DNA of 64,000 nt from Hormiphora californensis (lineage: Eukaryota > Animalia > Ctenophora), in NCBI GenBank assembly GCA_020137815.1, contig CM035360.1, forward strand, positions 3,844,001 through 3,908,000, given 5' to 3'. Within the stretch, counting starts at the first letter, position 1, and every line of letters starts with the position of its first letter. A program made the position numbers and the translations under genes. The notes beneath the pieces are model-generated. The model was not told the origin of the DNA. It did no database searches and saw only the letters and a program-made list of their open reading frames with translations. Shown piece after piece: positions 15,146 through 64,000 of the stretch.

Positions 15146-15326
15146 TCCCTGGAGACGGAATTCACGCGCGACAGTTCCGATCATTTGTCCGCATTGTACG
15201 TGACACGTCTCCTTGTCAACAATTTCACATCATAACCAGAAGATTTTATTTGTTTCCAAAATATTTTAATTCCATTTCCAACAACAACCAATTCTAACAT
15301 CCCTCCTTTTGGTAGCCTGAATAGAA

Positions 15327-16116
15327 ATGAAGACCTTCGTCGTTCTCTTCGCTGTTATGGTTGTGGCCGTCTCCGCCAGTGGTCACGGTCACGGTCACGG
15401 TGACAGCTCTAGCTCTGACAGTAGCTCTGACAGTAGCTCCGACAGCTCAACGACCTTCCAGTGCTACGTTGGAACCACCGCCACCGACTGCAGCTCCGGA
15501 ACCGCCAAGTGCTTCGCGTGAGTGAATTAGTCTGGGGGTTGAAAGGGAGTGGTTGAGGTAGGGAGAGGAAAGAAAGGGCAATTAGCAAGAGTCGGTACTG
15601 CAGTGTTTCGGTCGAAAGTTGCTTACTTAATATGAGTTGGGAAAAGTTATTGGGGGAGGGGAATGAAGCCCGGGCCGCATCATTCATGGATCTATGTAAA
15701 GCTGACCGGGTTCGGACCCTGATTTACCGGGATGCTCGGGGGAAGTGGTTTTGCCTAATCGGGGTATACCGTTAATATCCTATATCGGGATTCCGGTAAA
15801 TCGGGGTCATAATGTACCAAGTTATTCGATTAATCATCCTAGTTAATTAGGGTCCCATTATCTGTATCGGGGTAGGGAGAGAGAGCTAAAAGAATGCCAC
15901 TAACACCCCTTCCCCTCCCCCAGTGCTGCCAGCAACTACACCGGAAATGCCACTGCCCTGAATGACGGAGGATGCGGAGAGTGTCACTCTATGTACGGAG
16001 GAAACTGCACTGAGTGCGCTACCACTCTCTGTAACACCGACAGTGCCAGTGCCGGTTCCCAGGCCATCTTCGCCTCAATCTTTGTTCTGATTGCCGCTCT
16101 CAGCACTTTCTTCTAA
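15327..16116 (+). CDS. Small GPI-anchored Cys-rich protein, Ly6/uPAR (three-finger)-like, 2 exons
   Basis: Exons 15327-15517 and 15924-16116. Signal peptide, (GH)3 and DSSS repeats, 8 Cys beginning QCY and ending ECATTLCN, then small residues and a hydrophobic tail (AIFASIFVLIAALSTFF*). Confidence 0.8.
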
Positions 16117-17565: not shown

Positions 17566-20049
17566 ATGCCTCCCAAGCGAAATAAGGAGAAGCCCCATCT
17601 GAACATTGTCGTCATTGGGCACGTCGACTCTGGAAAATCCACCACCACCGGACATTTGATCTTCAAATGTGGTGGAGTTGATGACCGAACCATTGAGAAG
17701 TTCAAGAAGGAGGCCGAAGAGGTAAGATACTTTGTGATACTGTGTTTGTGTTGTGTGTGTTCATTTATTGCGTAGACTATATTATGTTAATCCTCTTGGT
17801 TCACACATTGATCACATCTATGTTTGTTAATCACACTACACTGGAATACTTTCAATCACCATCTCTGAACTGTTTTCTCCCAACATTCATTTTCAATGAT
17901 CCTCATTCAAATGGTCCTCTCAGTATATCTGGTAATATTTCCCCAGACAACACTGCGCTGGTGATCAGATCCAGAATTCTCCTTTTTCTCTTTGCTCTAC
18001 CTTTCTTTATCTCTGTTTATTTCTCTCTGTTTCTCTCTCGCTCTCTATCCCTGTTGCTTACCAGTCTATCTACATTTTAACTCTTCAATCTTCATATCCA
18101 GTCATGATCTAATCCCCTTCTCTATCTCTTTTTCTCTCTGTCCAGTGCCGCCCACATTCAAACTTTTTTCCTCAGTGTATCATCATAGTCATCATATCCA
18201 GTCATGTTCTCCCAGTCATGATCTAATCCAGATCCCTTCCCCATCTCTCACTGTACAACCCTTTCCCAGTCTCCACCTTTGTCCCACGTGGCGCACTCTT
18301 TGCCGCGCTGGCTCTCAGCGCGCCTTCACTCTCCCCCTGTCTCATGTAAAGCACGCAATCCACAACATTTGCTGTGTGCACTTTTCAAAGCGCGCACATT
18401 CACATATCAAATTGCATGTTCCATCCCCTGTGTGTGTAAAACACGTGGAGACCTGTGCTCCCCTACGTGTCAACATGTGTCTTGCCCAACACATACTATC
18501 TGTAAATCACCCTACCAAACCCCTGTTCCATCTTCTAGAACTATCATACCCCTATTCATCCACCACCCTCACCTCTCGAACTATATTTCCCTCTGACCCC
18601 AATTCCCCCCTCTAACCCCAATTCCCCTGTTTTCAGATGGGCAAGGGATCCTTCTGTTACGCTTGGGTTCTGGACAAGCTGAAGTCCGAGCGTGAGAGGG
18701 GAATCACAATCGATATTGCTCTTATGCAGTTCGAGACCCCCAAGTACGATGTGACCATCATTGATGCCCCCGGACACAGGGATTTCATCAAGAACATGAT
18801 CACTGGAACTTCTCAGGTAAATACAGGGTGTTAAATAGGGGGTACATAATAATGGAGGGTGTGTCATGATCATTTCTACACCAAGAATGATGGGGGTACC
18901 GCAATGTTCTCTAGTGCTGCAGTACCACTGTAAGAAACTCAAAATCCATTGCTTACCCTCCCCCTTCCTCTCCAGGCTGACGCTGCTGTGCTCATCGTTG
19001 CTGCCGGTACCGGAGAATTCGAGGCTGGTATCTCTTCCAACGGACAGACCAGGGAACATCTCCTGCTCGCCTTCACTCTTGGAGTCCGAGAGGTCATCAT
19101 TGCCATCAACAAGATGGACACCACATCTCCCCCTTACTCCGAGGAGCGATACAAGGAGATCAAGAAGGAGGTCGGAGCCTACCTGAAGAAGGTCGGTTTC
19201 CAGGTTCCCCGAGTTCCATTTGTCCCCATTTCTGGATTCAAGGGAGACAACATTGATACTCTCACCTCCAACATGAGCTGGTGGAAGGGATCCAAGGTGC
19301 AGACCGGAGAGAAGGGTAAGGAGAAGGAGGCCACTGTTAACTTCCTGACCGAGGCCCTCGACAACGTCACTCCCCCCACCCGACCCTTCACCAAGCCCCT
19401 CAGGCTGCCCCTTCAGGATGTCTACAAGATTGGTGGCATTGGAACGGTCCCCGTGGGCCGAGTCGAGACCGGAATCATCAAGCCCGGTATGGTTGTCACT
19501 TTCGGACCCGTCGGACTCACCACTGAGGTCAAGTCTGTTGAGATGCATCACGAGTCTCTGCCCGAGGCCGCTCCCGGAGACAACGTTGGTTTCAACATCA
19601 AGAACGTCGCCGTCAAGGAGATCAAGCGAGGATTCGTCGCTTCTGACAGCAAGAACGACCCCGCCAAGGAGGCCGTTGAGTTCGAGGCTCAGGTTATCAT
19701 CATGAACCACCCCGGAAACATCAGCAACGGATACACCCCCGTCCTCGATTGCCATACCTCTCACATCGCCTGTAAATTCACCGAGATCAAGGCCAAGATG
19801 GACAAGCGATCCGGAAAGGTCCTGGAAGAGAACCCCAAGAGCGTGAAGAACGGTGATGCCTCTATGTGCGTCCTGAAGCCCACCAAACCCATGGTTGTGG
19901 AGACCTTCAAGGAGTACGCTCCCCTCGGCCGATTCGCTGTCCGAGACATGAAGCAGACCGTCGCTGTCGGTGTCGTCAAGAGCGTCACCAAGGGAGACAG
20001 CACTGGCAAGACCACGAAATCCGCCCAGAAAGTTGGAGGCAAGAAATAA
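17566..20049 (+). CDS. EEF1A: Elongation factor 1-alpha, 3 coding exons, 469 aa
   Basis: Exons 17566-17721, 18637-18816 and 18976-20049. [18 protein letters not shown] and LGRFAVRD motifs; opisthokont insertion present; strong C-ending codon bias. Confidence 0.98.
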
Positions 20050-21844
20050 GCAGTCTGGACCACCAACCCCGCCCGGTGCGATTTTTAGGAGCTCTGGTTA
20101 TTTAACTTGAATTGATGAGTTTTATTTTTTACAATGACAAAATTTCTTAGTTTTTATTTGTTCTCGGTATTGGAAGTGGAACAGCGATCGCTGTTGTGAG
20201 GGACTGGTGTCTGTGTCAAGGTACTGCAAAAATGCCTGTGTACCTCTCGTTTGGATAAACCGGTTGCCCTGCTCGTGCGGGACCGCATCAGCAATTTGGG
20301 TACGATGAACCGGGTACCTTGTGATCGGGAATGAAACTCGCAGGAGATGCAACAATGTTGTCTCTTCACATGTCGGGGCCCCATTTGATTTCACGTTTCT
20401 ATGTGCGCGTCGATTCTGGTCCACGCCGCGCGAGATTCTCTGGAAAATATGCACCGCGCGTGACAGAACAGTGAATTGTTCAGTGTGGCCAGGTCCAGTG
20501 CAGTGAATGAGATCATCCGGCACTGCACATGAAGTGATCTAATAATAATACAGCCATGCAAGGTCGCCACTTGGGTCAACATTGCATTTACCGGCTACCG
20601 CTTATCCCTGATGACTCATCAGGGGGTGGTATAATCAAATGAGATAGAGACTTCTAGCTAGATGTAGAAGTTTGTATCCTGGTAGAGTGCTCGATCCGGG
20701 GATGCGGAGAGCTTAACTATTGTGGCAAGTAAAACCTTGTTTCACTTGTCACAATAGAGATAGAGACTTCAAATGTGGAGACTGGAGGTTGGGAAGAACC
20801 TGTCCGGCGGCGCCGACCCGATCTGAATGCTATGTAAAAATAGGGTCTGGCGGCGCCAGACAGGGAAGAACCAAATTTGAAGGGGGGGGGGGCTTTTTAG
20901 CAATTCGTGGTTTTATTTTGAGACATAAAGCAAAGAACAAACGGTATGTTGAACATGAAAGAAAATGTAAAACCAATTTACAATTAAAAGATCATTTACA
21001 TTGAAAATTAAACAGGCTGTATACATCACATATTATTATCATAATCTACATAAACATCTGATAAAGTAAAGAAATTAACACAATTAAGTTTTATTATCAT
21101 TGCAAAAAGTCCATCACGTGGGCAAGGACACTTTCCTTACAGCAATATTTCTTGAACATTAAGACTCTTAGTAAAATGTCCCACCCAGAATAACTGTCTG
21201 GCGCCGACCCGATCAGAGTGTTGGATCCATCGCATCCTATTCTCGCTCCGCGAATAATAGGATCCCGGCCCGTTGAGAGCAAGAACTCACGTGCGCGCGA
21301 TATAAAGCACGTTTTCAGCAGATCGCGCGTGATAGACCGTTTTTGGAGACCATTTTAGCTGACCTAGCACTACTCAAAGGTCAATTATGGCCTCATTTCG
21401 CATCGTGATGAATCGGCGGGTATTTTCCCATACTCACAAGGCCATGACGATTCCCCCAGTACCCGCAGATTGTCCCAGGACCGAGTACGAGCTTGCAGCC
21501 AGGTCTTTAAAGAATTGCTCATGTTTGGCGTCAATTTTGACCCACTATTCCTCAAATGCTGATACTCGCGGGTATTTTCCGTAAAACTAGAGACAATTAT
21601 CTGCCAGGAGCAACAAACGAGATGTAAATCGGTTCAGTAGTTCCTTGCAGCCAGGTCTTTGAAAAAGTTTGCTCTAAAATCAATAACGGACCGGAGGCCT
21701 AGATGTGAGATCGATCTCGGTCGCTGCGCGACCTCGATCTCACTCAGGCATCAATGTGGCCAAATCAGAGTGCACATTTGATAATCAAAACGGGGTCTGA
21801 CCAGACAGCAGAATAATAGACGTCCCTAACAGAGTTCTGTAATG

Positions 21845-24800
21845 CTAACTAATTTTGCCCCCATTCCTGGGTAGACCATCCCAATTAGTGTAAAACTGGT
21901 AATTCCTCCTCCTACTCTCCCTCACATTAGCGTATCCAGGGTGATAACCACTGGGGTATAGTCCGTACTTGGTGAACGCCCGAAGAAGGGGCAGCTCGGA
22001 GCGCCGTAGAAAGCTAACAACTAATTTGGTGTCTGTGTCACCGTGAGCAACGACGTCAACGGATTTGACTAGGTCCTCCATTGGTACCTAGAGGTGGGTG
22101 TTGTGAGTGGTGCACCATGACGTGAGCACTGTGAGCAGATTGAATGATCCGATTCTGATCAGAGTGGGCAACTAGCAGAGTGGGCTGAGTCAGAGTGGGC
22201 AACTAGCAGAGTGGGCTGAGTCAGAGTGGGCAACTAGCAGAGTGGGCTGAGTCAGAGTGGGCAACTAGCAGTTTGGACTGAGTCAGAGTGGGCTGAGTCA
22301 GAGTGGGCTGAGTCAGAGTGGGCTGAGTCAGAGTGGGCAGCTAGCAGAGTGGGCTGAGTCAGAGTGGGCAACTAGCAGAGTGGGCTGAGTCAGAGTGGGC
22401 AACTAGCAGAGTGGGCTGAGTCAGAGTGGGCAACTAGCAGAGTGGGCTGAGTCAGAGTGGGCAACTAGCAGTTTGGACTGAGTCAGAGTGGGCTGAGTCA
22501 GAGTGGGCTGAGTCAGAGTGGGCTGAGTCAGAGTGGGCAGCTAGCAGAGTGGGCTGAGTCAGAGTGGGCAGCTAGCAGAGTGGGCTGAGTCAGAGTGGGC
22601 AACTAGCAGAGTGGGCTGAGTCAGAGTGGGCAACTAGCAGAGTGGGCTGAGTCAGAGTGGGCAACTAGCAGTTTGGACTGAGTCAGAGTGGGCTGAGTCA
22701 GAGTGGGCTGAGTCAGAGTGGGCTGAGTCAGAGTGGGCAGCTAGCAGAGTGGGCTGAGTCAGAGTGGGCAGCTAGCAGAGTGGGCTGAGTCAGAGTGGGC
22801 AACTAGCAGTGTGGGCTGAGTCAGAGTGGGCAACTAGCAGAGTGGGCTGAGTGACTCAGCCTGAGTCAGAGTGGGCTGAGTCACAGTGTGATGATGTGAT
22901 GGAATAATGTGCTTTAAATGCAGTTTGGTTTCACATGCGGTACCACAGACACAAAACTAACTGTTAAAATTCAACAACACCACGAACACAAGCTCCATTC
23001 CCACAAAAACTCTCTCATTTTACCAGGGCTTCTCTGAAGTTTGGCGAACACCCCTTCAGACAAACTCTAGTACAATGCAAAAGTTTTCGTGGGAAAGAAA
23101 CTGGTGCGGAAAGAAGCCATTATACTTTACCTGGAAGAAGGGAGGGTCGAACAGGATTAGATCAAAGTTTTGGGTGAGTGGTGATGGTTTAAACAGGTTG
23201 TACCTGAGATACCTTGGCAGGTAACTAAACCTGAGGGAAGGGGAGAATTTTAATTAATTGTCTGTCAAGATCAGCGGAAACCCATGATAAACGACACCGC
23301 CTCCTCCCGATATCTAGGCAAGGAAAAGATCGAGAAAAAAAATCAAAATTATTGATCTAAATCTCATTCCACTTCCAATTGGTACTCTAAAAGCTCCCTA
23401 GAATTCCCCCTTCCCCGATACCTCCCCCTCCCGATATCTCCCCCTCCCCTCCCTCAGCCCTCTCAATATCTCCCCCTCCCTCCCCTCCCGATATCTCCAT
23501 TCTCCCCTCCCCTCCCCCTCCCCCCTCCCGACATCTCCATTCTCTCTCTCTCCCGATATCTCCTACCTCTCGTCGATGTCGAGCAGGGTGACATCCCTGT
23601 TAAGACAGTGGGAGACATGGGCCACACTGGGACACACCAGACAACAAGGATTATCAAATTGGTCAAACATTTTCACTATCTCAACCAGAGTGTCGCGTGA
23701 GAAGAAGTATTGCTCCAAATCTCGTCGTTCCTCTAGAGCTAGCTCTTGGATCCTGGAGGGGGGGGTTAGTATGAGTTGGAGCCTGGAGAGGGAGGGGGAG
23801 TTTACTTATAGTGATTGATTCTCCGTTCTACAATGGACCCCCACGCGACGTATTTCTAGGGAAAGGGGTTATCAAGAATGGGGTAGCTAGAATTACAGGG
23901 ACGTGGTACCATATAGGAGGTGCGAGATGGGTCGTGTGATCTGTGCTTATCAGTTCTGTGAAAGATACGCTGACCACAAAATTATTAGACGTCGTACCAG
24001 TCTGGCTTGCACCGAACAGTATTAATGGCAATTGGGAAAGCAGACAGTTGTAAACGGTTGAACAAGCTCACCTAAAGTCATTCATAAGACTGTCTGAAGA
24101 GGTTTCCGCGACCTCTAATTTCTCTCCTCTTTCCTTCTTCTTCCGATATCTTTCATACTGCTGTAGAGCCTTTTCATAATCCCACTCATAATGTTCCATA
24201 ATTGTCCTGACCTTGGCTTCAGGGTAGCCAGTAAACCGCATAAACCTCTCAACATCATCCTCCTTCTGTAGCCTGTGTTTAGAAAGTGGTTTTAGATCTG
24301 TCCTTTACCATTTCCCACACAGGACTGTTTTTCTAAAGGTGCTGGGTGGGAAATTGTGGTCATGCACAGCAATCATGTCGTGAAACAATTCGCTGGTACT
24401 CATTTAAATGATCTGTGCATCTGTATAACACTCTCGGTATGTCTCAAACTGAGATTAAAATAACAACTACACACTATGTAGTTTCTATTTTAAACTCAAC
24501 TGCTCAATACCTTGTATTGATAAACATCACAAATGATTGTAAATTAGTCGTAATTTCACTGACCGTTCCTGATTTTTGATTTCACTCCTCGCCAGTCTCT
24601 CCTCAGCCTGTTTTCGTCTCTCTAATAGGATCCTTCTGGTCTCATTAAAATCACCATTGCAATCTCGATAGACACGCTGACAGGTGGAGGCACTGTTTCG
24701 TGTCTCCAATTCCAACTGAGATAACTGCTCTTCAGGTAGAGCAATCTGCAGAGTGGAGGTAGGATTTAATTGTGTGAGAGTGGAGGCAGGATAAGAGAGA

Positions 24801-25519
24801 AAAGGACATCTACCTACACCAGTCACATTTCTACACTAGCCATAAATTGAGAAATGAGGAAGGAAAGTGGAGAATTAAAATAGGTAAAGAGGGAAGGAAA
24901 AATAAAACTGATCGGGGGGAATGGTGCATTCAACATTGCTATAATAATAGTTAATACCTTGCAAGGCTGATCTTCATACGTCTTCGGTGTCCGTGAACCT
25001 TTCTGAACAGGTTTAACCTCACTGCTAACTCTCCTCTCTGCAGTTTTCCTTCTGGTCTTAGCGGCTCTCTTGAGTGACTGAAGTGCTGCCGAGGAATCCC
25101 AAGAATTTTGAGAGAGTGCAAGGAACGCAGCTCGATCAGTGTACCCGTAACATTGGATTAGCTCTTCAACTTGGATCCGGTGCTGTTCCCTAACTTCCTG
25201 CCTTCGGCCGAACCTGCAAAGTGATTTACATAGATCACATCACGTATTGTCAAAACAATTATAAAGCGATCAAATATCTCACACAAAAGTAAAACCCAAT
25301 ACTTCTTAGAATATACTCCAGGTGAGACTGGCAAACTGAAACCTACTGTTGTTCAAGTTTTCTTCTCTCCTCAATAAATTTAAGGAACTTGGTTGCTTTA
25401 TTAACTTGACGATCATCCCCAGCAGATCGAGATTGGGTCCGAGGTTCGTAGGCCCGTTTGTTCAAATCATGCCCTCTCAGGACCATTACGGCACAGATAA
25501 AATCTTCAGGGTTCTCCAT
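21845..25519 (-). CDS. 446-aa protein: three UBA-like helical domains + EEF1AKMT1/N6AMT2-family (DPPF) methyltransferase domain, 7 exons
   Basis: Exons 25519-25347, 25213-24958, 24745-24564, 24272-24072, 23752-23567, 23230-23131 and 22087-21845 are all GT-AG and phase-consistent (1341 nt). MTase motifs: LEQYFFSRDT, CCLVCPSV, LLDIDERF, YNLFKP, FDLILFDPPFF, YQFYTNW. Confidence 0.8.
22160..22885. repeat. Minisatellite of 15/16-bp subunits (cagagtgggctgagt / cagagtgggcaactag) with higher-order periodicity, in the last intron of the methyltransferase gene
   Basis: Seen directly; a variant unit with gtttggactg recurs at ~22271, 22471 and 22671. Confidence 0.92.
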
Positions 25520-27102: not shown

Positions 27103-36176
<9,074 letters not shown>

Positions 36177-42211: not shown

Positions 42212-43190
42212 AATTAGGACTCATAATTTTCAACGCATCATCACAATTTCGACGGTTTTTAATATTTAAATTGACAACTTCTTAAACAAGTATGTAATAA
42301 ACAATTCTCATTTGTTTTTTAATTAATCTTAGGCCATTTTCAAGTGTGAAAGCACAGAGAATACTTCAACTCATTTTTACGCCATTTTTAATTTTTGGTG
42401 AACAAAAAAACCCGTTCGGATTATTGTTCTGAGGACTGAAACTATTTCTATACGAATGACAAAATATCTAAGATTGCAACTTGTTAGGTGTTGTTATATT
42501 GTCTTTTCCAATAAAACCATTGTCATACTTTCTACTTTTATATTTTACATGTTACTCAAACGCCGAAAACGGAAGTCGTCTGACTTACAATTTCGGACAA
42601 AGCAAGGTATTAAGAAATGGCCTGAGGAGCATCAACGTAACGCGCGAGGAGTCAAGAGTAGCGCACTCGGCGCAACATCAGCCGATATTGGATTCAGGAG
42701 TTTAACATTTCCAGACGCGCTTTTGAACGTAGCACGCGGTAAATACATATTATAACGGCATAAATGTGCCGCGCATTTGAATAAATAATTTATGATTTTG
42801 AAATTCAAGCTGACTTTTGGAAGTCTTTTTTGAAAAACTCCGAGGAACTTTTCAGTTTTTGAAACTTTTATTTTCCTGTTTCCAGTTTCCTGGGCTCTCA
42901 GACCTCCCTAGACCTATATTTTGTGTTTATACTTACTCTAATTTACTAATTACTTGTGCTCTCACTGACAGCATTCGTTTGTTTGTGGTGTGTTGCCGCG
43001 ACTTTCCAAAATCTGGCCCAAAATCGGGGTCTGGCGCCGCCAGACAGAACCTGGGGCAGCTGTCAGCTACTATGCGACATGCGTTCTCGAGCTCGTGCAT
43101 CTTTTCATAATAAGTGTCTGACAGACGGCAGATGAGAAGGGCAGTGTCCCAATAATAATACTTATAACGACTTTCTTTTTAGTGTCTAGC

Positions 43191-45748
43191 ATGAATCAAA
43201 AATCAGCCCAGCTAGTGCTTGGAATCACTGCCATAATATTTCTAATTGTGGCAACTCTTTTTACTCTCCTGCTCAACCGAGGAACATTCCCTACTAACCA
43301 CCGCGCATTTGATTTGAACGACAAATCAATATCCTACCCATACCTTCCGAATACAATCAACGGATATGTCAATGTCGCTATTAACACTATCATTTCCTTG
43401 GGAATTGGAATAACTTGGATATTTTACCACAAATCACAAATCCGGGTCCATAGCAACTTCACGATCCTGGCATCACTCCTGATCTACAACATTGCAATGG
43501 GTGGTATGCTGGTGAACTTGTTTACCAACGTTTTCAAGCACATGATCGGGGGATTGAGGCCCCATTTCATGGCCAAGTGTATGGTAAATGAAACAGTGAA
43601 GGATGAAATCTTCAATAAAACGGGCGGCACCTGGGTGGATATTGATTACTCTGAGATTATCTGTACAAACACCCATAAACCTGAATATCGGTGGTCTCAT
43701 CCCCTCTGGACATTCTTCAACGGTAAGTCACACGCTAAACACAGAATTTGAACACACATCTGAAATTTGTAAACCTGTAATGCAATCGATTTAGGGCAGA
43801 GGAAGGGTGTCTAATTCATTACACGTATTTTTGGAACTCATATATCACACGTTAATGCTCTGTCAGGCCAATGCTCTGACCACAGTTCTCACGCGCTCTG
43901 TGTGCAGAACCTTATTTGAGAGAAACGAAAATGGGTCAGACCAATGCTTGTGTTACTACATCAAAATCCCCCGCCGCATTATGAACAAGTTTATGCTGCA
44001 TACACTGTTCTTTGGTTGTACCCCGTATCTTCACTACCTGGCGGCGCCATGCGACACCGATTTGATTCTGACAGGGCGCTCAGATGGGGGTCCACGGCGC
44101 CAGACAGTATCTTCACTATCATCAGCTACTGATCTAGTGAAATGTACGACGTCAATGACGTCACATCATTGAAACTTTCTGTTGAGCATGTGGTATTATA
44201 ATGCAGCAGCCCTGCAGTGGAATTCAGCTGTCAACTTTTTTTGCATCTCTGTGATAGATTTTGCTCTTAAAAATTGCAGCATCTGTGTGTCATGGCCAGG
44301 CACATACAGCAGGCTTCTCAATATCTCTGTGTCTCTTTCTCTCTCCCACTCTCTCACCATATCTCTCATCACATCTCTCTCTTATCTCTCACTATCCTCC
44401 CTGCTATTTTGACTGTCTCTCTCCCACTCTCTCACCGTATCTCTCTCTCCTACTCTCTCTCCCACTATCTCTATCTCACCAACTGCTATTTTGACTGCCT
44501 CTCTACGTACTCAGTGCAAGATCTGTCACCTCTCTGTCACGAGAGGAAGAAGAATCATTTCAACTGTCACAATGTCGCTAACGCTGCATCACTGCCCCGT
44601 CATTATCTCCTGCACTTGCACCACTATATTCCTACTGGTAGCTAACATCCATCATACAATTCACCTGATCTTATCCCTACTACTGTTCATGGGTTCTCGA
44701 TCCATGATCCCAACCTCAACTACCCCATCCTCCCATCCTCTTCCATCCCTGGTCCCTGCTATCCTGGGCCTCTGTCTTGTTTTGGAAGCGTGTCTACTAG
44801 CAGTGAACACTATCACCCGGAAGTCTCCCTTCGTGTACCTATTCGCTGGATGTGGCAACTTCCTCACTCTCTCCTTGACAACCCTTATCAAGAGGCTGGC
44901 CGGGGAGATGAGGCCTTGTTTTTTGGGAATGTGCCAGCCGAATTCTACCCTGGCTCCGGATGGTGTGGTCAATGCTTCTCTTGCTAGAGTGATCTGTCTG
45001 GGGCATGAGGCAGATGATGCTCGCCACTCTTTTCCATCTCGTCATACCAGTCAGGTAGCTTCACTTTATTTCATATGTTAGAGTTCGGAAAAACAAGTAC
45101 CGAGCAGCTATATTAGTACCCTCTGTAAAGTGCAAACTTGTTAGTTGCTAAATTAGGGGCATTTATCACCGACTTGAGGGTGGGGGTTGTAAGCTAGCTA
45201 AGCCGTGCCAATTTATTGCTTCGAAAATGTAATTCCTCTTCTGTTTTTCAGGCGTTCTACGGTATGATTCTATCAATACTACTGCTCAACGATTTCAAGT
45301 GGACCCTTCCCTTCCAACCTATCAAGATGTCGCTCCAGTTCTGTATGCTAACCTTTGCCACCTGGGTTGGAGCCACTAGAATTATGGGTAGGTAGTAATA
45401 ATAATTACCGACTATGTTCTGGTGCCCGATCTCACGCATGGTTTCAGAATAACCACCCAACCACCCTTCTCCGTCAGACTAACCACCCTTCCCTCCTCCC
45501 CTCTCCCTCAGACTACCTCGATTAATAACCCCTACCCTCAGACTAACCACCAAAACACCCTCTCCCTCAGACTACCATCACCACTGGTACGACGTGCTAG
45601 CGGGTCACTTCTTGGGACATTCTTTGCAGTCTTCACATACCACTGGTTTATTGTGCCCGTTATACGGCTGTTCCTGGAGAATGCCAAAGAGGAGGAAGCT
45701 GTGCCAGGGAATTCCTCTCTCCAACGTGAGTTAAACAGACACAGCTGA
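43191..45748 (+). CDS. PAP2-family phospholipid phosphatase (PLPP/wunen-like) with two candidate 5' exons
   Basis: Exon A 43191-43722 (KHMIGGLRPHF; SHPSGHSST after removing one C). Exon B ~44572-45054 (KRLAGEMRPCF; SFPSRHTSQ). Shared exons 45252-45387 (ATRIM) and 45572-45748 (DYHHHWYDVLAG). Confidence 0.8.
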
Positions 45749-62474: not shown

Positions 62475-64000
62475 CAGTCGGACCCCGATTTACCGGGCCC
62501 CGATTTACCGGAACCCCGATTTACCGGGAGGATTTCTTTCCCCCGAATTTTTTTGGCCCATTTTCAACAAAAATTTCAGATTTTCGATTTTTGTGAAATG
62601 TGACCTGATGAGTCTAACTGACTCTCTCCCTCTCTCTCCCTCCATGCCCCCCTAGGTCACGTGACTCGATAAGTCACGTGACTGTGCTAATCACCTACTG
62701 TTGCTAAATTTAGACACTGGCGGCACACACCACCTCGTTATCCGTTACTGGAGAGGTTGGAGGTCTGAGTGCTGACGTATCGACTGTGACGTTCACGTAG
62801 TATATAAGCTGGTCACTTTTCAGTTCAAATCAGTCTACTATGACTTCGATCACTATTTGCAAAGCAGAGCTGACCACTCTCGCTAACATACCCCGATCCG
62901 AAACCGTTGGCAATGATGGCACCCATGATGGCAATCCAATAACTATCCGAAACAGGCAAATGAAGGGAGTAGCTTTGGGTTCCCCCTCAGCTAAATCCCA
63001 GATACTAACCGTTGGCTCAATAAAGGGTTCCCCCTCCTTTAAACAGAGACTCCTTACTTTTGGGACAAATGAGGGTTCACCTTCGTCTAAGAGACCCAGA
63101 GCTGAAGGAGGAAGAGGTGTCTCACCCTCTACTCCCAAACGTTCTAAAGTTCAGACAAATGGTTCACCTTTCATACAGAGACTCCAAGCTGCTGGCAAGA
63201 AAGGAGCCGGGGAGGCGTCACCCTCCACTCCGAAAAGAGTTCGTCTATCAATCGCCCAAAAGCGATCTGTGATATCAAGCTTCAACTCTGGTGTACCCAT
63301 TGCCCAAATTGCAGCCGAATTTGGCATCGGTAAACAGACAGTGAGTGACATCAAAGCCAAAGAATCCCAGTTAGATGCATATGAGATACTATACAGTTGT
63401 AAAAACGACAAGCGGAAGTCGTTAAAGCGTCCTTCTAGAGAGACTGTAGATGAAGCATTGTATGCGTGGGTGAGATCACAGCGTGCAGGAAATGTTCCCC
63501 TGAATGGCATGATCCTCAAGGCAAAAGCAATGTGGTTCAATACTCAGTTGGGCGGCCCTGAATCTTTTCAGGCAGCAAGCGGGTGGCTTTATAGGTTTTG
63601 TCAACGGCATGGCATTACTTTCAAAAAATCATCGGGCGAAGCTCTGGATGCTGACTCAAGTACAGCTGAAGAGTACCGTACCGAGACACTCCCTTCCCTT
63701 TTGGAGACGGAGGGAATCGAGATGGATCAGTTGTTCAATGCTGATGAGACCGGGCTGATATACAGGAAAGCTCCAACTTCCTCTTATGTGTTGGCAGAGG
63801 AGAAGGGAAATTTGCCTGGCCGAAAGCAGGCAAAAGAAAGAGTTACACTGATGGTAGGTGGGAATGCCACGGGAACTATAAAGCTCCCTTTGGTGATGAT
63901 AGGCAAGTCGAAAAAGCCACGATGCTTCAATAAGATGGCTGAGAAGGCAATCCCAGTGCGATATCGGTCACAAAAGAAAGCCTGGATGGATACAGATGTT
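62475..64000 (+). mobile_element. Tigger/pogo DNA transposon (left part) inside a BMS1 intron
   Basis: TA|CAGTCGGACCCCGATTTACC terminus with subterminal repeats, a TATA-like box at ~62801, and a transposase ORF. Confidence 0.9.
62840..64000 (+). CDS. pogo/Tigger transposase (psq-HTH, CENP-B HTH, DDE_1), open to the window end
   Basis: ATG at 62840; RVRLSIAQK...IAAEFGIGKQTVSDI, DEALYAWV...FQAASGWLYRFCQRHGI, LFNADETGL, KERVTLMVGGNATG, IGKSKKPRCF, QKKAWMD. Absent from the ORF track because there is no stop in the window. Confidence 0.93.
   Translation, partial: MTSITICKAELTTLANIPRSETVGNDGTHDGNPITIRNRQMKGVALGSPSAKSQILTVGSIKGSPSFKQRLLTFGTNEGSPSSKRPRAEGGRGVSPSTPKRSKVQTNGSPFIQRLQAAGKKGAGEASPSTPKRVRLSIAQKRSVISSFNSGVPIAQIAAEFGIGKQTVSDIKAKESQLDAYEILYSCKNDKRKSLKRPSRETVDEALYAWVRSQRAGNVPLNGMILKAKAMWFNTQLGGPESFQAASGWLYRFCQRHGITFKKSSGEALDADSSTAEEYRTETLPSLLETEGIEMDQLFNADETGLIYRKAPTSSYVLAEEKGNLPGRKQAKERVTLMVGGNATGTIKLPLVMIGKSKKPRCFNKMAEKAIPVRYRSQKKAWMDTDV

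What the first reader, a model, noticed from the sequence alone, without database searches (positions are those of the whole stretch)
17566..25519. eEF1A lacking its canonical methyl-lysines lies tail-to-tail with an EEF1AKMT1-family methyltransferase: a possibly rewired elongation-factor modification system
Seen: aligned by eye to human eEF1A1, four of five known methylated lysines are replaced. K36 is D (GGVDDR), K55 is C (GSFCYAW), K79 is Q (IALMQFET) and K165 is E (YSEER); only K318 (VAVKEI) remains. A convergent gene 1.8 kb downstream encodes a DPPF methyltransferase resembling EEF1AKMT1/N6AMT2/Efm5. Established: that family trimethylates eEF1A K79, and the related NPPY enzyme HemK methylates glutamine. 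Inference: the pair may have co-evolved, with the enzyme retargeted to Q79, another residue or another substrate. Strong codon bias suggests this is a highly expressed eEF1A rather than a decaying copy. The adjacency could be coincidence.
Basis: partly seen in the sequence, partly recalled or inferred. Interest (0 to 1): 0.8.

Follow-up and report, generated by a model that had tools for sequence, protein, structure and literature searches.

The report
Comb-jelly eEF1A sheds its methyl-lysines
This comb-jelly translation factor eEF1A, like all 52 sequences of its clade checked, lacks lysine 55, and most of them also lack lysines 36 and 79, so comb jellies likely run without most of the methyl marks that other animals put on this protein; the methyltransferase gene next door is not the known K79 enzyme but belongs to a little-studied lineage with some bacterial members in RNA-repair operons, and it likely acts on something other than eEF1A.

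Summary
Both genes are real and spliced; the organism is a Pleurobrachia-like ctenophore. D36, C55, Q79, E165 and K318 are confirmed. The loss is clade-wide. Among 52 ctenophore-type eEF1As, K55 is kept in 0, K36 in 7, K79 in 17 and K318 in 52. K55, K36 and K79 are the three least-kept of 37 otherwise invariant lysines (P≈5e-4). K165 is uninformative (2 of 20 outgroup). All 52 start PPK: this fails the METTL13 N-terminal consensus and matches the NTMT1 motif.

The neighbour (446 aa, at least one UBA-like domain plus PF10237/DPPF) is not an EEF1AKMT1 orthologue. It scores 27 bits against a canonical profile and 203 against a third lineage, and nesting with animal-like EEF1AKMT1 is rejected (p=0.0006). 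That lineage spans bacteria, giant viruses, a fern and a nematode; 11 of 75 prokaryotic loci have RNA-repair neighbours.

Position 79 flips between Q, K and E, which argues against a new glutamine site. Synteny, loss of the enzymes and actual methylation were not testable. Verdict: the eEF1A code has eroded across the clade; the co-evolved-pair idea is unsupported.

The parts
17566..17721 (+). eEF1A coding exon 1 (residues 1-52); starts M-P-P-K-R; D at human position 36 (codon 17683-17685)
   Evidence: joined to exon 2 in RNA contig X9 record 24
18637..18816 (+). eEF1A coding exon 2 (residues 53-112); C at human 55 (codon 18655-18657), M at 78, Q at 79 (codon 18727-18729)
   Evidence: exon 2-3 junction in X7 and X9
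18976..20049 (+). eEF1A coding exon 3 (residues 113-469 and stop); E at human 165 (19144-19146), K318 kept (19615-19617)
17569..17577 (+). Pro-Pro-Lys after the initiator Met: matches the NTMT1 X-P-K/R motif, fails the METTL13 C-domain consensus; methylation predicted only
   Evidence: sequence; 52 of 52 clade members; motifs from passages of PMC6109062 and PMC10293735
20769..21781 (.). high-copy repeat (MITE-like, inferred) filling about half of the intergenic gap; 16-nt inverted ends
   Evidence: inverted pair I2; DNA contig depth up to 765,183 against a few hundred on the flanks, and joints skipping 20826-21777 (run X5)
25347..25519 (-). methyltransferase gene exon 1
   Evidence: aligns with the N-terminus of the full-length orthologue P0139; no RNA contig seen here
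24958..25213 (-). exon 2, helical unit weakly like a UBA/TAP-C domain
   Evidence: TAP_C E=0.11; weak cross-score with the exon-4 unit
24564..24745 (-). exon 3, helical unit conserved in P0139; UBA likeness not shown
24072..24272 (-). exon 4, UBA-like domain
   Evidence: Pfam UBA_4 24.3 bits, above the 21.8 cut-off; the orthologue's equivalent hits EF-Ts_N only weakly (E=0.1)
23567..23752 (-). exon 5, start of the PF10237 methyltransferase domain (EQYFF, motif I, Post-I LDID)
23131..23230 (-). exon 6, with the DPPF motif at 23148-23137
21845..22087 (-). exon 7 and stop of the methyltransferase
22155..22888 (.). 31-bp-unit minisatellite in intron 6 of the methyltransferase gene

Best explanation
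This is an expressed ctenophore eEF1A from a clade that lacks K55 throughout and mostly lacks K36 and K79, which likely reflects loss of those three methyl marks and of the constraint on these sites, with the N-terminal mark predicted to pass from METTL13 to NTMT1 through the new PPK end, while the neighbouring enzyme is a separate, likely unrelated methyltransferase. Shown: the residue states, their non-random pattern, the PPK end, retention of K318 (so METTL10 methylation is predicted to remain), and the enzyme's place outside the canonical EEF1AKMT1 clade. Inferred: that METTL13, EEF1AKMT4 and EEF1AKMT1 no longer act on this eEF1A and may be lost from the genome; that the neighbour is a SAM-dependent N-methyltransferase, most likely of adenine N6 in RNA in an RNA/ribosome-repair setting (my split: about 45% RNA adenine, 30% lysine of another protein, 10% DNA adenine, 10-15% eEF1A), recruited through its UBA-like domain; and that the tail-to-tail position is chance.
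For: K55 0/52, K36 7/52, K79 17/52 and K318 52/52 in the clade, against 20/20 each in the outgroup. K55, K36 and K79 are the three least-retained of 37 outgroup-invariant lysines (P=5e-4). Both METTL13 sites are lost together: K55, and an N-terminus that fails M-[GAP]-[KRFYQH]-E-[KRQHIL] (PPK in 52/52). Residues 36 and 79 take 6 and 3 states, as expected under relaxed constraint. Enzyme: none of the best 150 of 261 hits carries the canonical motif; 27 bits against a canonical profile, 203 against the third lineage; Pfam 64 bits against 190-207 for 7 canonical-type proteins; 16-23% identity to 24 canonical sequences against 25-39% to 53 third-lineage ones, while animal-like and yeast-like canonical sequences share a median 37%; nesting with animal-like canonical sequences rejected, p-AU 0.0006. 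RtcB, RtcA, Ro60 or PrfH genes lie within 4 kb in 11 of 75 prokaryotic loci, and there is a Tpt1 fusion (P0185).
Against: Presence or loss of METTL13, NTMT1 and EEF1AKMT1-4 was not tested (no genome held). Synteny was not tested, and a PF10237 gene beside eEF1A is a low-probability event if random (roughly a few in 10,000; my estimate from a recalled gene count). The data do not reject the ctenophore enzyme as sister to the whole canonical clade (p-AU 0.43). The third-lineage set was collected with a ctenophore query, which favours it, and the canonical set with a recalled motif. 64 of 75 prokaryotic loci show no RNA-repair neighbour by my clustering (some are cut short), and the 11 fall into about 3-5 lineages. 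One family member is fused to an NRPS (P0190). DPPF does not predict substrate (passage of PMC6954407). Six ctenophore-like records with K36, K55 and K79 were dropped before counting; four are shown hybrids, but a real K55 paralogue is not excluded. Only 1 of the 52 clade members carries a species name (Mnemiopsis leidyi, P0035).
Confidence: 0.62

Rival explanations
1. The pair co-evolved: the UBA-fused enzyme has taken over eEF1A modification at a new site (Q79, C55 or another lysine), docking through its UBA/EF-Ts-N-like domain.
For: Tail-to-tail adjacency. Its nearest characterised sequence relative methylates eEF1A K79 (passage of PMC10238732). A sister position to canonical EEF1AKMT1 is not rejected. 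The orthologue's UBA-like unit weakly resembles the EF-Ts N-domain (E=0.02-0.1). C55 is fixed in 49 of 52. One giant-virus member lies next to an eIF1-like gene (L004; name recalled from the sequence).
Against: Residue 79 is Q, K or E, with K and Q in sister sequences, and three clade members have Y55. The lineage occurs in bacteria that have no eEF1A and in RNA-repair operons. It is not nested in canonical EEF1AKMT1. About half of the intergenic gap is a high-copy repeat. In the window's own protein the UBA hit is UBA_4, not EF-Ts_N.
Confidence: 0.1
2. The lysine losses are ordinary fast ctenophore sequence drift; the methylating enzymes are still present and act on other substrates or on the species that keep the lysines; nothing is rewired.
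For: 27 of 303 outgroup-invariant columns are changed in the window's eEF1A, and 10 positions are fixed differently in the clade, most of them not methyl sites. K79 is kept in 17 and K36 in 7 of 52. X-P-K starts also occur with K55 intact in 5 of 20 outgroup sequences, including Hydractinia. K79 methylation is absent from a viable human cell line (passage of PMC10220242).
Against: The changes concentrate on the methyl sites (p=0.005 for the window, P=5e-4 clade-wide). METTL13-C, and these enzymes in general, are described as highly eEF1A-specific (passages; search-listing abstract of PMC10844748).
Confidence: 0.18
3. This eEF1A is a specialised paralogue and a conventional K36/K55/K79 copy does the main work.
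For: Six ctenophore-like records carry a conventional N-terminal region: P0050, P0128, P0134, P0135, P0062, P0066.
Against: P0050 and P0128 are identical to C55-type proteins after position 95, and P0134 and P0135 differ by 5-6 residues; each has a different conventional front end, the pattern of assembly chimeras. The only named ctenophore hit among the best 120 (Mnemiopsis) is D/C/Q type. Codon bias is strong, the cluster has 19 members, and RNA runs of several studies hold the gene.
Confidence: 0.06
4. The neighbour is a DNA N6-adenine methyltransferase.
For: PF10237 proteins of Phytophthora (DAMT1/3, DPPY/DPPF) were assayed as DNA 6mA methyltransferases (passages of PMC6211444).
Against: I did not place the DAMTs in the tree. 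No recurring restriction-modification neighbour appeared among the clustered neighbours of 75 loci. The nearest solved fold is the rRNA enzyme ZCCHC4.
Confidence: 0.08

Closest known systems
Human eEF1A1/eEF1A2 methylation system (K36 EEF1AKMT4, K55 and N-terminus METTL13, K79 EEF1AKMT1, K165 METTL21B, K318 METTL10)
   Same: A full-length eEF1A with G domain and domains II and III; K318, K41, K44, S53 and the E301/E374 equivalents are kept.
   Different: K55 absent clade-wide (C or Y), K36 and K79 mostly replaced, W78 replaced by M, N-terminus PPK instead of GKEK. K55 dimethylation is reported even in Giardia (passage of PMC7743719).
EEF1AKMT1/N6AMT2/Efm5 (PF10237)
   Same: PF10237 domain, DPP[F/Y] Post-II motif, seven-strand fold.
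   Different: Only 16-23% identical to canonical-type sequences and outside their 100/100 clade; EQYFF in place of the canonical motif; 270-residue N-terminal extension with a UBA-like domain.
ZCCHC4 (28S rRNA m6A methyltransferase, PDB 6UCA)
   Same: Nearest solved structure (Foldseek E=2.6e-9; Z 18.6, rmsd 2.9 over 175 residues, next best Z 13.4) and best PDB profile hit (E=3.7e-5); DPPF and LLDID motifs.
   Different: 14-16% identity; no Cys/His-rich N-terminal region and no C-terminal zinc fingers. A canonical EEF1AKMT1-type query finds no relative in the PDB, so this ranking cannot choose between the two families.
NTMT1/Tae1 substrates with X-P-K/R N-termini
   Same: After Met removal the protein starts P-P-K-R; PPKRIA is described as the tightest-binding NTMT1 peptide (passage of PMC10293735).
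   Different: eEF1A is described as a substrate of METTL13 or Efm7, not of NTMT1; no methylation data exist here.
Bacterial Rtc-type RNA repair operons (RtcB, RtcA, Ro60/Rsr, PrfH, Tpt1/KptA)
   Same: Bacterial members of the enzyme's lineage lie directly after rtcB (L024, L034, L036, L072), directly before rtcA (L057, L059, L063, L072) or after prfH (L065), or are fused to Tpt1.
   Different: Only 11 of 75 loci; the ctenophore gene has introns and a UBA fusion and no such context.
Phytophthora DAMT1-3 (PF10237, reported DNA 6mA methyltransferases)
   Same: Same Pfam domain and DPP[F/Y] motif.
   Different: Their lineage was not determined here.

Membership tests
eEF1A | GTP_EFTU plus domains II and III, closer to eEF1A than to HBS1, eRF3 or EF-Tu | tested here: met
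eEF1A | intact, spliced and transcribed | tested here: met
eEF1A | sole or main expressed copy in the genome | tested here: inconclusive
   no genome held; conventional-type records look chimeric; contig depth cannot rank genes
EEF1AKMT1/Efm5 | PF10237 domain | tested here: met
   64 bits for the orthologue, cut-off 23.2; canonical-type proteins score 190-207
EEF1AKMT1/Efm5 | DPP[F/Y] Post-II motif | tested here: met
   DPPF at 23148-23137
EEF1AKMT1/Efm5 | orthology: nests inside the animal plus fungal canonical clade | tested here: not met
   canonical clade 100/100 without it; nesting rejected, p-AU 0.0006; a sister position is not rejected, p 0.43. The canonical set is unnamed and was collected with a recalled motif
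EEF1AKMT1/Efm5 | N-terminal Trp-Gln-Leu-Ser-Gln-type signature (recalled, not from a call) | tested here: not met
   LEQYFF in the window and its orthologues
EEF1AKMT1/Efm5 | trimethylates eEF1A K79 | not testable with these tools
   needs an assay; the neighbouring eEF1A has Q79
ZCCHC4 | DPPF methyltransferase core of the same fold | tested here: met
ZCCHC4 | Cys/His-rich N-terminus and C-terminal CCHC zinc fingers (PMC6954407 passage) | tested here: not met
   the protein ends just after the domain; the N-terminus is helical and UBA-like
ZCCHC4 | groups with ZCCHC4 in a tree | not tested
   no ZCCHC4 sequence was held as a usable record
ZCCHC4 | m6A on 28S rRNA | not testable with these tools
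   needs an assay
Third PF10237 lineage (bacterial, giant-virus, scattered eukaryotic) | scores far higher against the lineage profile built without ctenophore rows, and falls on its side of the tree | tested here: met
   203 against 27 bits; the set was collected with a ctenophore query
Third PF10237 lineage (bacterial, giant-virus, scattered eukaryotic) | exact sister group of the ctenophore enzymes | tested here: inconclusive
   sister to a eukaryote plus giant-virus group at 82/31 support only
HemK-type glutamine methylation | target Gln in a GGQ motif (PMC10238732 passage) | tested here: not met
   Q79 lies in ALMQFET and is K or E in 18 of 52 relatives
METTL13 substrate | K55 and N-terminus M-[GAP]-[KRFYQH]-E-[KRQHIL] | tested here: not met
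   C55 and M-P-P-K-R
NTMT1 substrate | X-P-K/R N-terminus | tested here: met
   PPK in 52 of 52
NTMT1 substrate | N-terminal Pro actually methylated; NTMT1 present in ctenophores | not testable with these tools
   no genome, no proteomics
UBA-like domain | passes a Pfam UBA family cut-off | tested here: met
   exon-4 unit only (UBA_4 24.3, cut-off 21.8); the other two units are weak or not shown

The most novel reading that the evidence does not exclude
Ctenophores have replaced the conserved eEF1A lysine-methylation code: METTL13, EEF1AKMT4 and EEF1AKMT1 are gone, NTMT1 caps the new PPK end, and the linked UBA-fused enzyme from a bacterial and giant-virus RNA-repair-associated lineage has been recruited to modify eEF1A itself at a non-lysine site such as the fixed switch-I Cys55.
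Probability: 0.07. Interest if true: 0.88.

Novelty: new variant of a known kind. Interest (0 to 1): 0.5.

Why it matters
eEF1A K55 dimethylation sits in switch I, is reported from Giardia to humans, and is reported to tune codon decoding and drive tumour growth (passages). An animal clade that has fixed Cys (or Tyr) at this site, and has let K36 and K79 drift while keeping K318, is a natural knock-out. It gives sharp, cheap predictions: METTL13 lost, NTMT1 acting on eEF1A, METTL10 kept. It could also help to test what these marks are for. Separately, the neighbour points to a third PF10237 lineage that I did not find described in my searches. It is shared by bacteria, giant viruses and scattered eukaryotes and is repeatedly tied to RtcB, RtcA and Tpt1, which makes it a candidate RNA-repair-linked methyltransferase and a possible clue to how EEF1AKMT1 and ZCCHC4 diverged.

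Tried and rejected
Synteny: no genome is held. Two homologue searches returned no named Mnemiopsis orthologue whose locus tag could be compared with its eEF1A (2 hits of 22 candidates; 2 of 520). Complex prediction of eEF1A P0001 with the orthologue P0139 gave no answer (score 0.02, alignments not used, two different species) and is evidence neither way. A single-sequence fold of P0139 was poor (pLDDT 40.7); only the domain model with an alignment was used (91.6). The ESM Atlas held neither sequence tried. The viral fold library gave no clear match. Four more RNA runs gave no contig on the methyltransferase exons (one 165-nt contig in intron 6); this is no proof of silence, and exons 1-4 rest on splice signals, the orthologue P0139 and the P. 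bachei model P0121. Three motif matches in viral contigs were not in-frame family members. The idea of three homologous UBA repeats was only weakly supported. K165 was rejected as evidence. Rows dropped before the eEF1A count: sequences outside 430-500 aa, near-duplicates at 97%, and 10 records, namely six ctenophore-like hybrids with conventional lysines and four protein-level assemblies of the outgroup type. Look-ups of earlier findings gave nothing on this gene pair or lineage. A recalled 2016 survey of RNA-repair systems could not be read and may already mention the operon link.


Full report
Observation. The window is eukaryotic. The plus-strand gene at 17566-20049 has three coding exons and encodes a 469-residue eEF1A. 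It differs by one residue from the spliced database protein P0001, whose cluster has 19 members. Alignments to mammalian eEF1A chains in the PDB confirm D at 36, C at 55, Q at 79, E at 165 and K at 318. The convergent gene has seven GT-AG exons (25519 to 21845), 446 residues and a DPPF motif, and the stop codons are 1795 bp apart. RNA-library contigs join the eEF1A exons and methyltransferase exons 5-6-7 (the run with the latter is only guessed to be RNA, depth 2.4). Four further RNA runs gave nothing on its exons. Exon 5 is 98% identical to a Pleurobrachia bachei gene model, so the organism is inferred to be a Pleurobrachia-like ctenophore. About half of the intergenic gap is a high-copy repeat.

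The eEF1A pattern is clade-wide. A search with exon 3 scored 7,998 candidates and listed the best 120; cluster members were added. I kept 430-500-residue sequences, dropped 10 records (see below), collapsed near-duplicates at 97% and built a tree on residues 101-455, which leaves out sites 36, 55 and 79. Of 72 rows, 52 form one clade (SH-aLRT 99) with the window and Mnemiopsis leidyi. The other members are unnamed and are assumed to be ctenophores by grouping. In the 52: K55 0 (49 C, 3 Y), K36 7, K79 17 (34 Q, 1 E), K165 4, K318 52, M78 52, N-terminal PPK 52. In the 20 outgroup rows K36, K55, K79 and K318 are each 20 of 20, but K165 only 2 of 20, so K165 is not a loss. Of 37 lysines invariant in the outgroup, K55, K36 and K79 are the three least retained (P=5e-4); for the window alone, Fisher p=0.005. 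Against this: the outgroup is small and chosen by similarity; 27 of 303 invariant columns are changed in the window; and X-P-K starts occur in 5 of 20 outgroup rows with K55 intact. Six dropped records are ctenophore-like with conventional lysines. Two are identical to C55-type proteins after residue 95 and two differ by 5-6 residues, each with a different front end. I read them as assembly chimeras, but a true paralogue is not excluded.

What the eEF1A pattern implies. METTL13 methylates both K55 and the N-terminus, with the consensus M-[GAP]-[KRFYQH]-E-[KRQHIL] (passages of PMC6109062). Both targets are gone. The new end P-P-K-R matches the X-P-K/R motif of NTMT1 (passages of PMC10293735). 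The enzyme-site pairs are from passages of PMC10238732, PMC5737405 and PMC10220242. K55me2 in Giardia is from passages of PMC7743719, and its link to switch I and decoding from passages of PMC13751311. I infer loss of the K55, K36 and K79 marks, retention of K318me, and transfer of the N-terminal mark to NTMT1. None of this was measured, and the enzymes' presence could not be checked. Positions 36 and 79 vary, with K and Q in sister sequences, which fits relaxed constraint rather than a new Gln target. C55 is nearly fixed, which is unexplained and may be a constraint of its own.

The neighbour is not EEF1AKMT1. A full-length orthologue (P0139, 452 residues) aligns end to end, confirming the architecture: about 270 residues of helical units, one passing Pfam UBA_4, then PF10237. 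An exhaustive search with P0122 found 261 relatives at E<=0.001. The best 150 share an EQ[YF]F[FW]-type signature and none has the canonical one (the canonical motif is recalled). To get canonical sequences I scanned metagenomes with that motif: 83 matches, 27 usable, 24 distinct. Seven tested score 190-207 bits on PF10237, against 64 for the ctenophore domain. The window protein scores 27 bits on their profile and 203 on a third-lineage profile built without ctenophore rows, and the canonical set is a 100/100 clade. Nesting with the animal-like canonical rows is rejected (p-AU 0.0006); a sister position to the whole canonical clade is not (0.43). The third-lineage set was collected with a ctenophore query, which favours it.

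Where that lineage occurs. Relatives were found in 75 loci of prokaryotic genomes out of 168 pattern matches (Chloroflexota, Planctomycetota, Myxococcota, Abditibacteriota, two Promethearchaeota and others), and in 9 of 81 matches in viral contigs, several labelled giant-virus MAGs. Two of 10 representatives looked up carry eukaryote names: the fern Ceratopteris and the nematode Plectus. The ctenophore pair is weakly sister to the eukaryote plus giant-virus group (82/31), so transfer and patchy retention cannot be told apart. The only widely recurring neighbour is RtcB (10 of 75 loci within 4 kb). With RtcA, Ro60/Rsr and PrfH the count is 11 loci, often directly adjacent, plus a Tpt1 fusion and an RtcA read-through record. 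These fall into about 3-5 lineages; with an assumed chance of 0.004 per locus, three lineages of 30 gives p about 2e-4. The other 64 loci show varied neighbours (97 of 134 flanking ORFs were scanned). A confident model of the domain (pLDDT 91.6) is closest to ZCCHC4, but a canonical-type query has no PDB relative, and DPPF does not predict substrate (passage of PMC6954407). Phytophthora PF10237 proteins were assayed as DNA methyltransferases (passages of PMC6211444) and were not placed here.

Mechanism and verdict. Most likely, two independent things sit side by side: an eEF1A whose methyl-lysine code has eroded across ctenophores, and a UBA-fused methyltransferase of a third PF10237 lineage that most likely methylates adenine in RNA, or another protein. 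Adjacency of such genes is improbable by chance, synteny is untested, and the UBA-like unit faintly resembles the EF-Ts N-domain in the orthologue.

Novelty. Nine full-text searches listed no paper on ctenophore eEF1A methyl sites or on this lineage's link to RNA repair; I saw listings only, except for the papers cited by passage. A METTL survey found no ctenophore METTLs by nucleotide BLAST and calls that evidence scant (passages of PMC8662637). A review of adenine methylases has no mention of N6AMT2, ZCCHC4 or Efm5 in its main text (PMC4738411). I read no supplements, and orthologue tables there could bear on enzyme loss. A recalled 2016 RNA-repair survey was not held and may already note the operon link. 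I rate this a new variant of a known kind, interest 0.5.

Noticed in passing
L024, L034, L036, L057, L059, L063, L065, L072, L074; P0185: Bacterial members of the third PF10237 lineage sit directly after rtcB, before rtcA or after prfH, near Ro60/Rsr and Band-7 genes, and one is fused to Tpt1/KptA: a candidate RNA-repair-linked methyltransferase that deserves its own study.
   Followed up: partly
L001-L009 (viral contigs): Giant-virus-type contigs carry stand-alone members of the same lineage; in L002 and L004 nearby ORFs look like translation genes (eIF1A-, eIF1- and tRNA-synthetase-like by recall, not scanned).
   Followed up: partly
P0190: The same methyltransferase domain is fused to the C-terminus of a 3,673-residue NRPS after the thioesterase, hinting at a small-molecule substrate in one sub-branch.
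   Followed up: no
window 18724-18729 and other eEF1A positions: Besides C55, ten positions are fixed differently in the clade, several in the G domain (W78M, E43K, A65S in human numbering), and there is a 4-residue insertion near residue 220 relative to mammals.
   Followed up: partly
P0061, P0173, P0174: The deepest branch of the clade has Y55 with K36, K79 and K165 kept and PPK already present, suggesting that K55 and the N-terminus (both METTL13 sites) changed first.
   Followed up: partly
P0087, P0073, P0110, P0118, P0089: Hydractinia and related outgroup eEF1As start A-P-K or P-P-K while keeping K55, so the N-terminal switch to an NTMT1-type motif may have happened more than once.
   Followed up: no
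window 20769-21781: Very high-copy element with short inverted ends between the two genes; other genomic copies differ internally.
   Followed up: partly
window 28847-33929 (-): Two long ORFs (452 and 1,250 aa) that look like an intact LINE-type retrotransposon (endonuclease plus reverse transcriptase, by recall).
   Followed up: no
window 15321-16116 (+): Small gene upstream of eEF1A with a signal-peptide-like start, His/Ser-rich stretch, Cys-rich repeats and a hydrophobic end.
   Followed up: no
window 43122-45745 (+) and 62801-64000 (+): PAP2-phosphatase-like membrane protein exons, and a pogo/CENP-B-like transposase ORF at the window's end (both by recall, not scanned).
   Followed up: no
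window 17553: An RNA contig (X9 record 23) matches from 17553 and has 26 further letters, consistent with an intron in the eEF1A 5' UTR.
   Followed up: no
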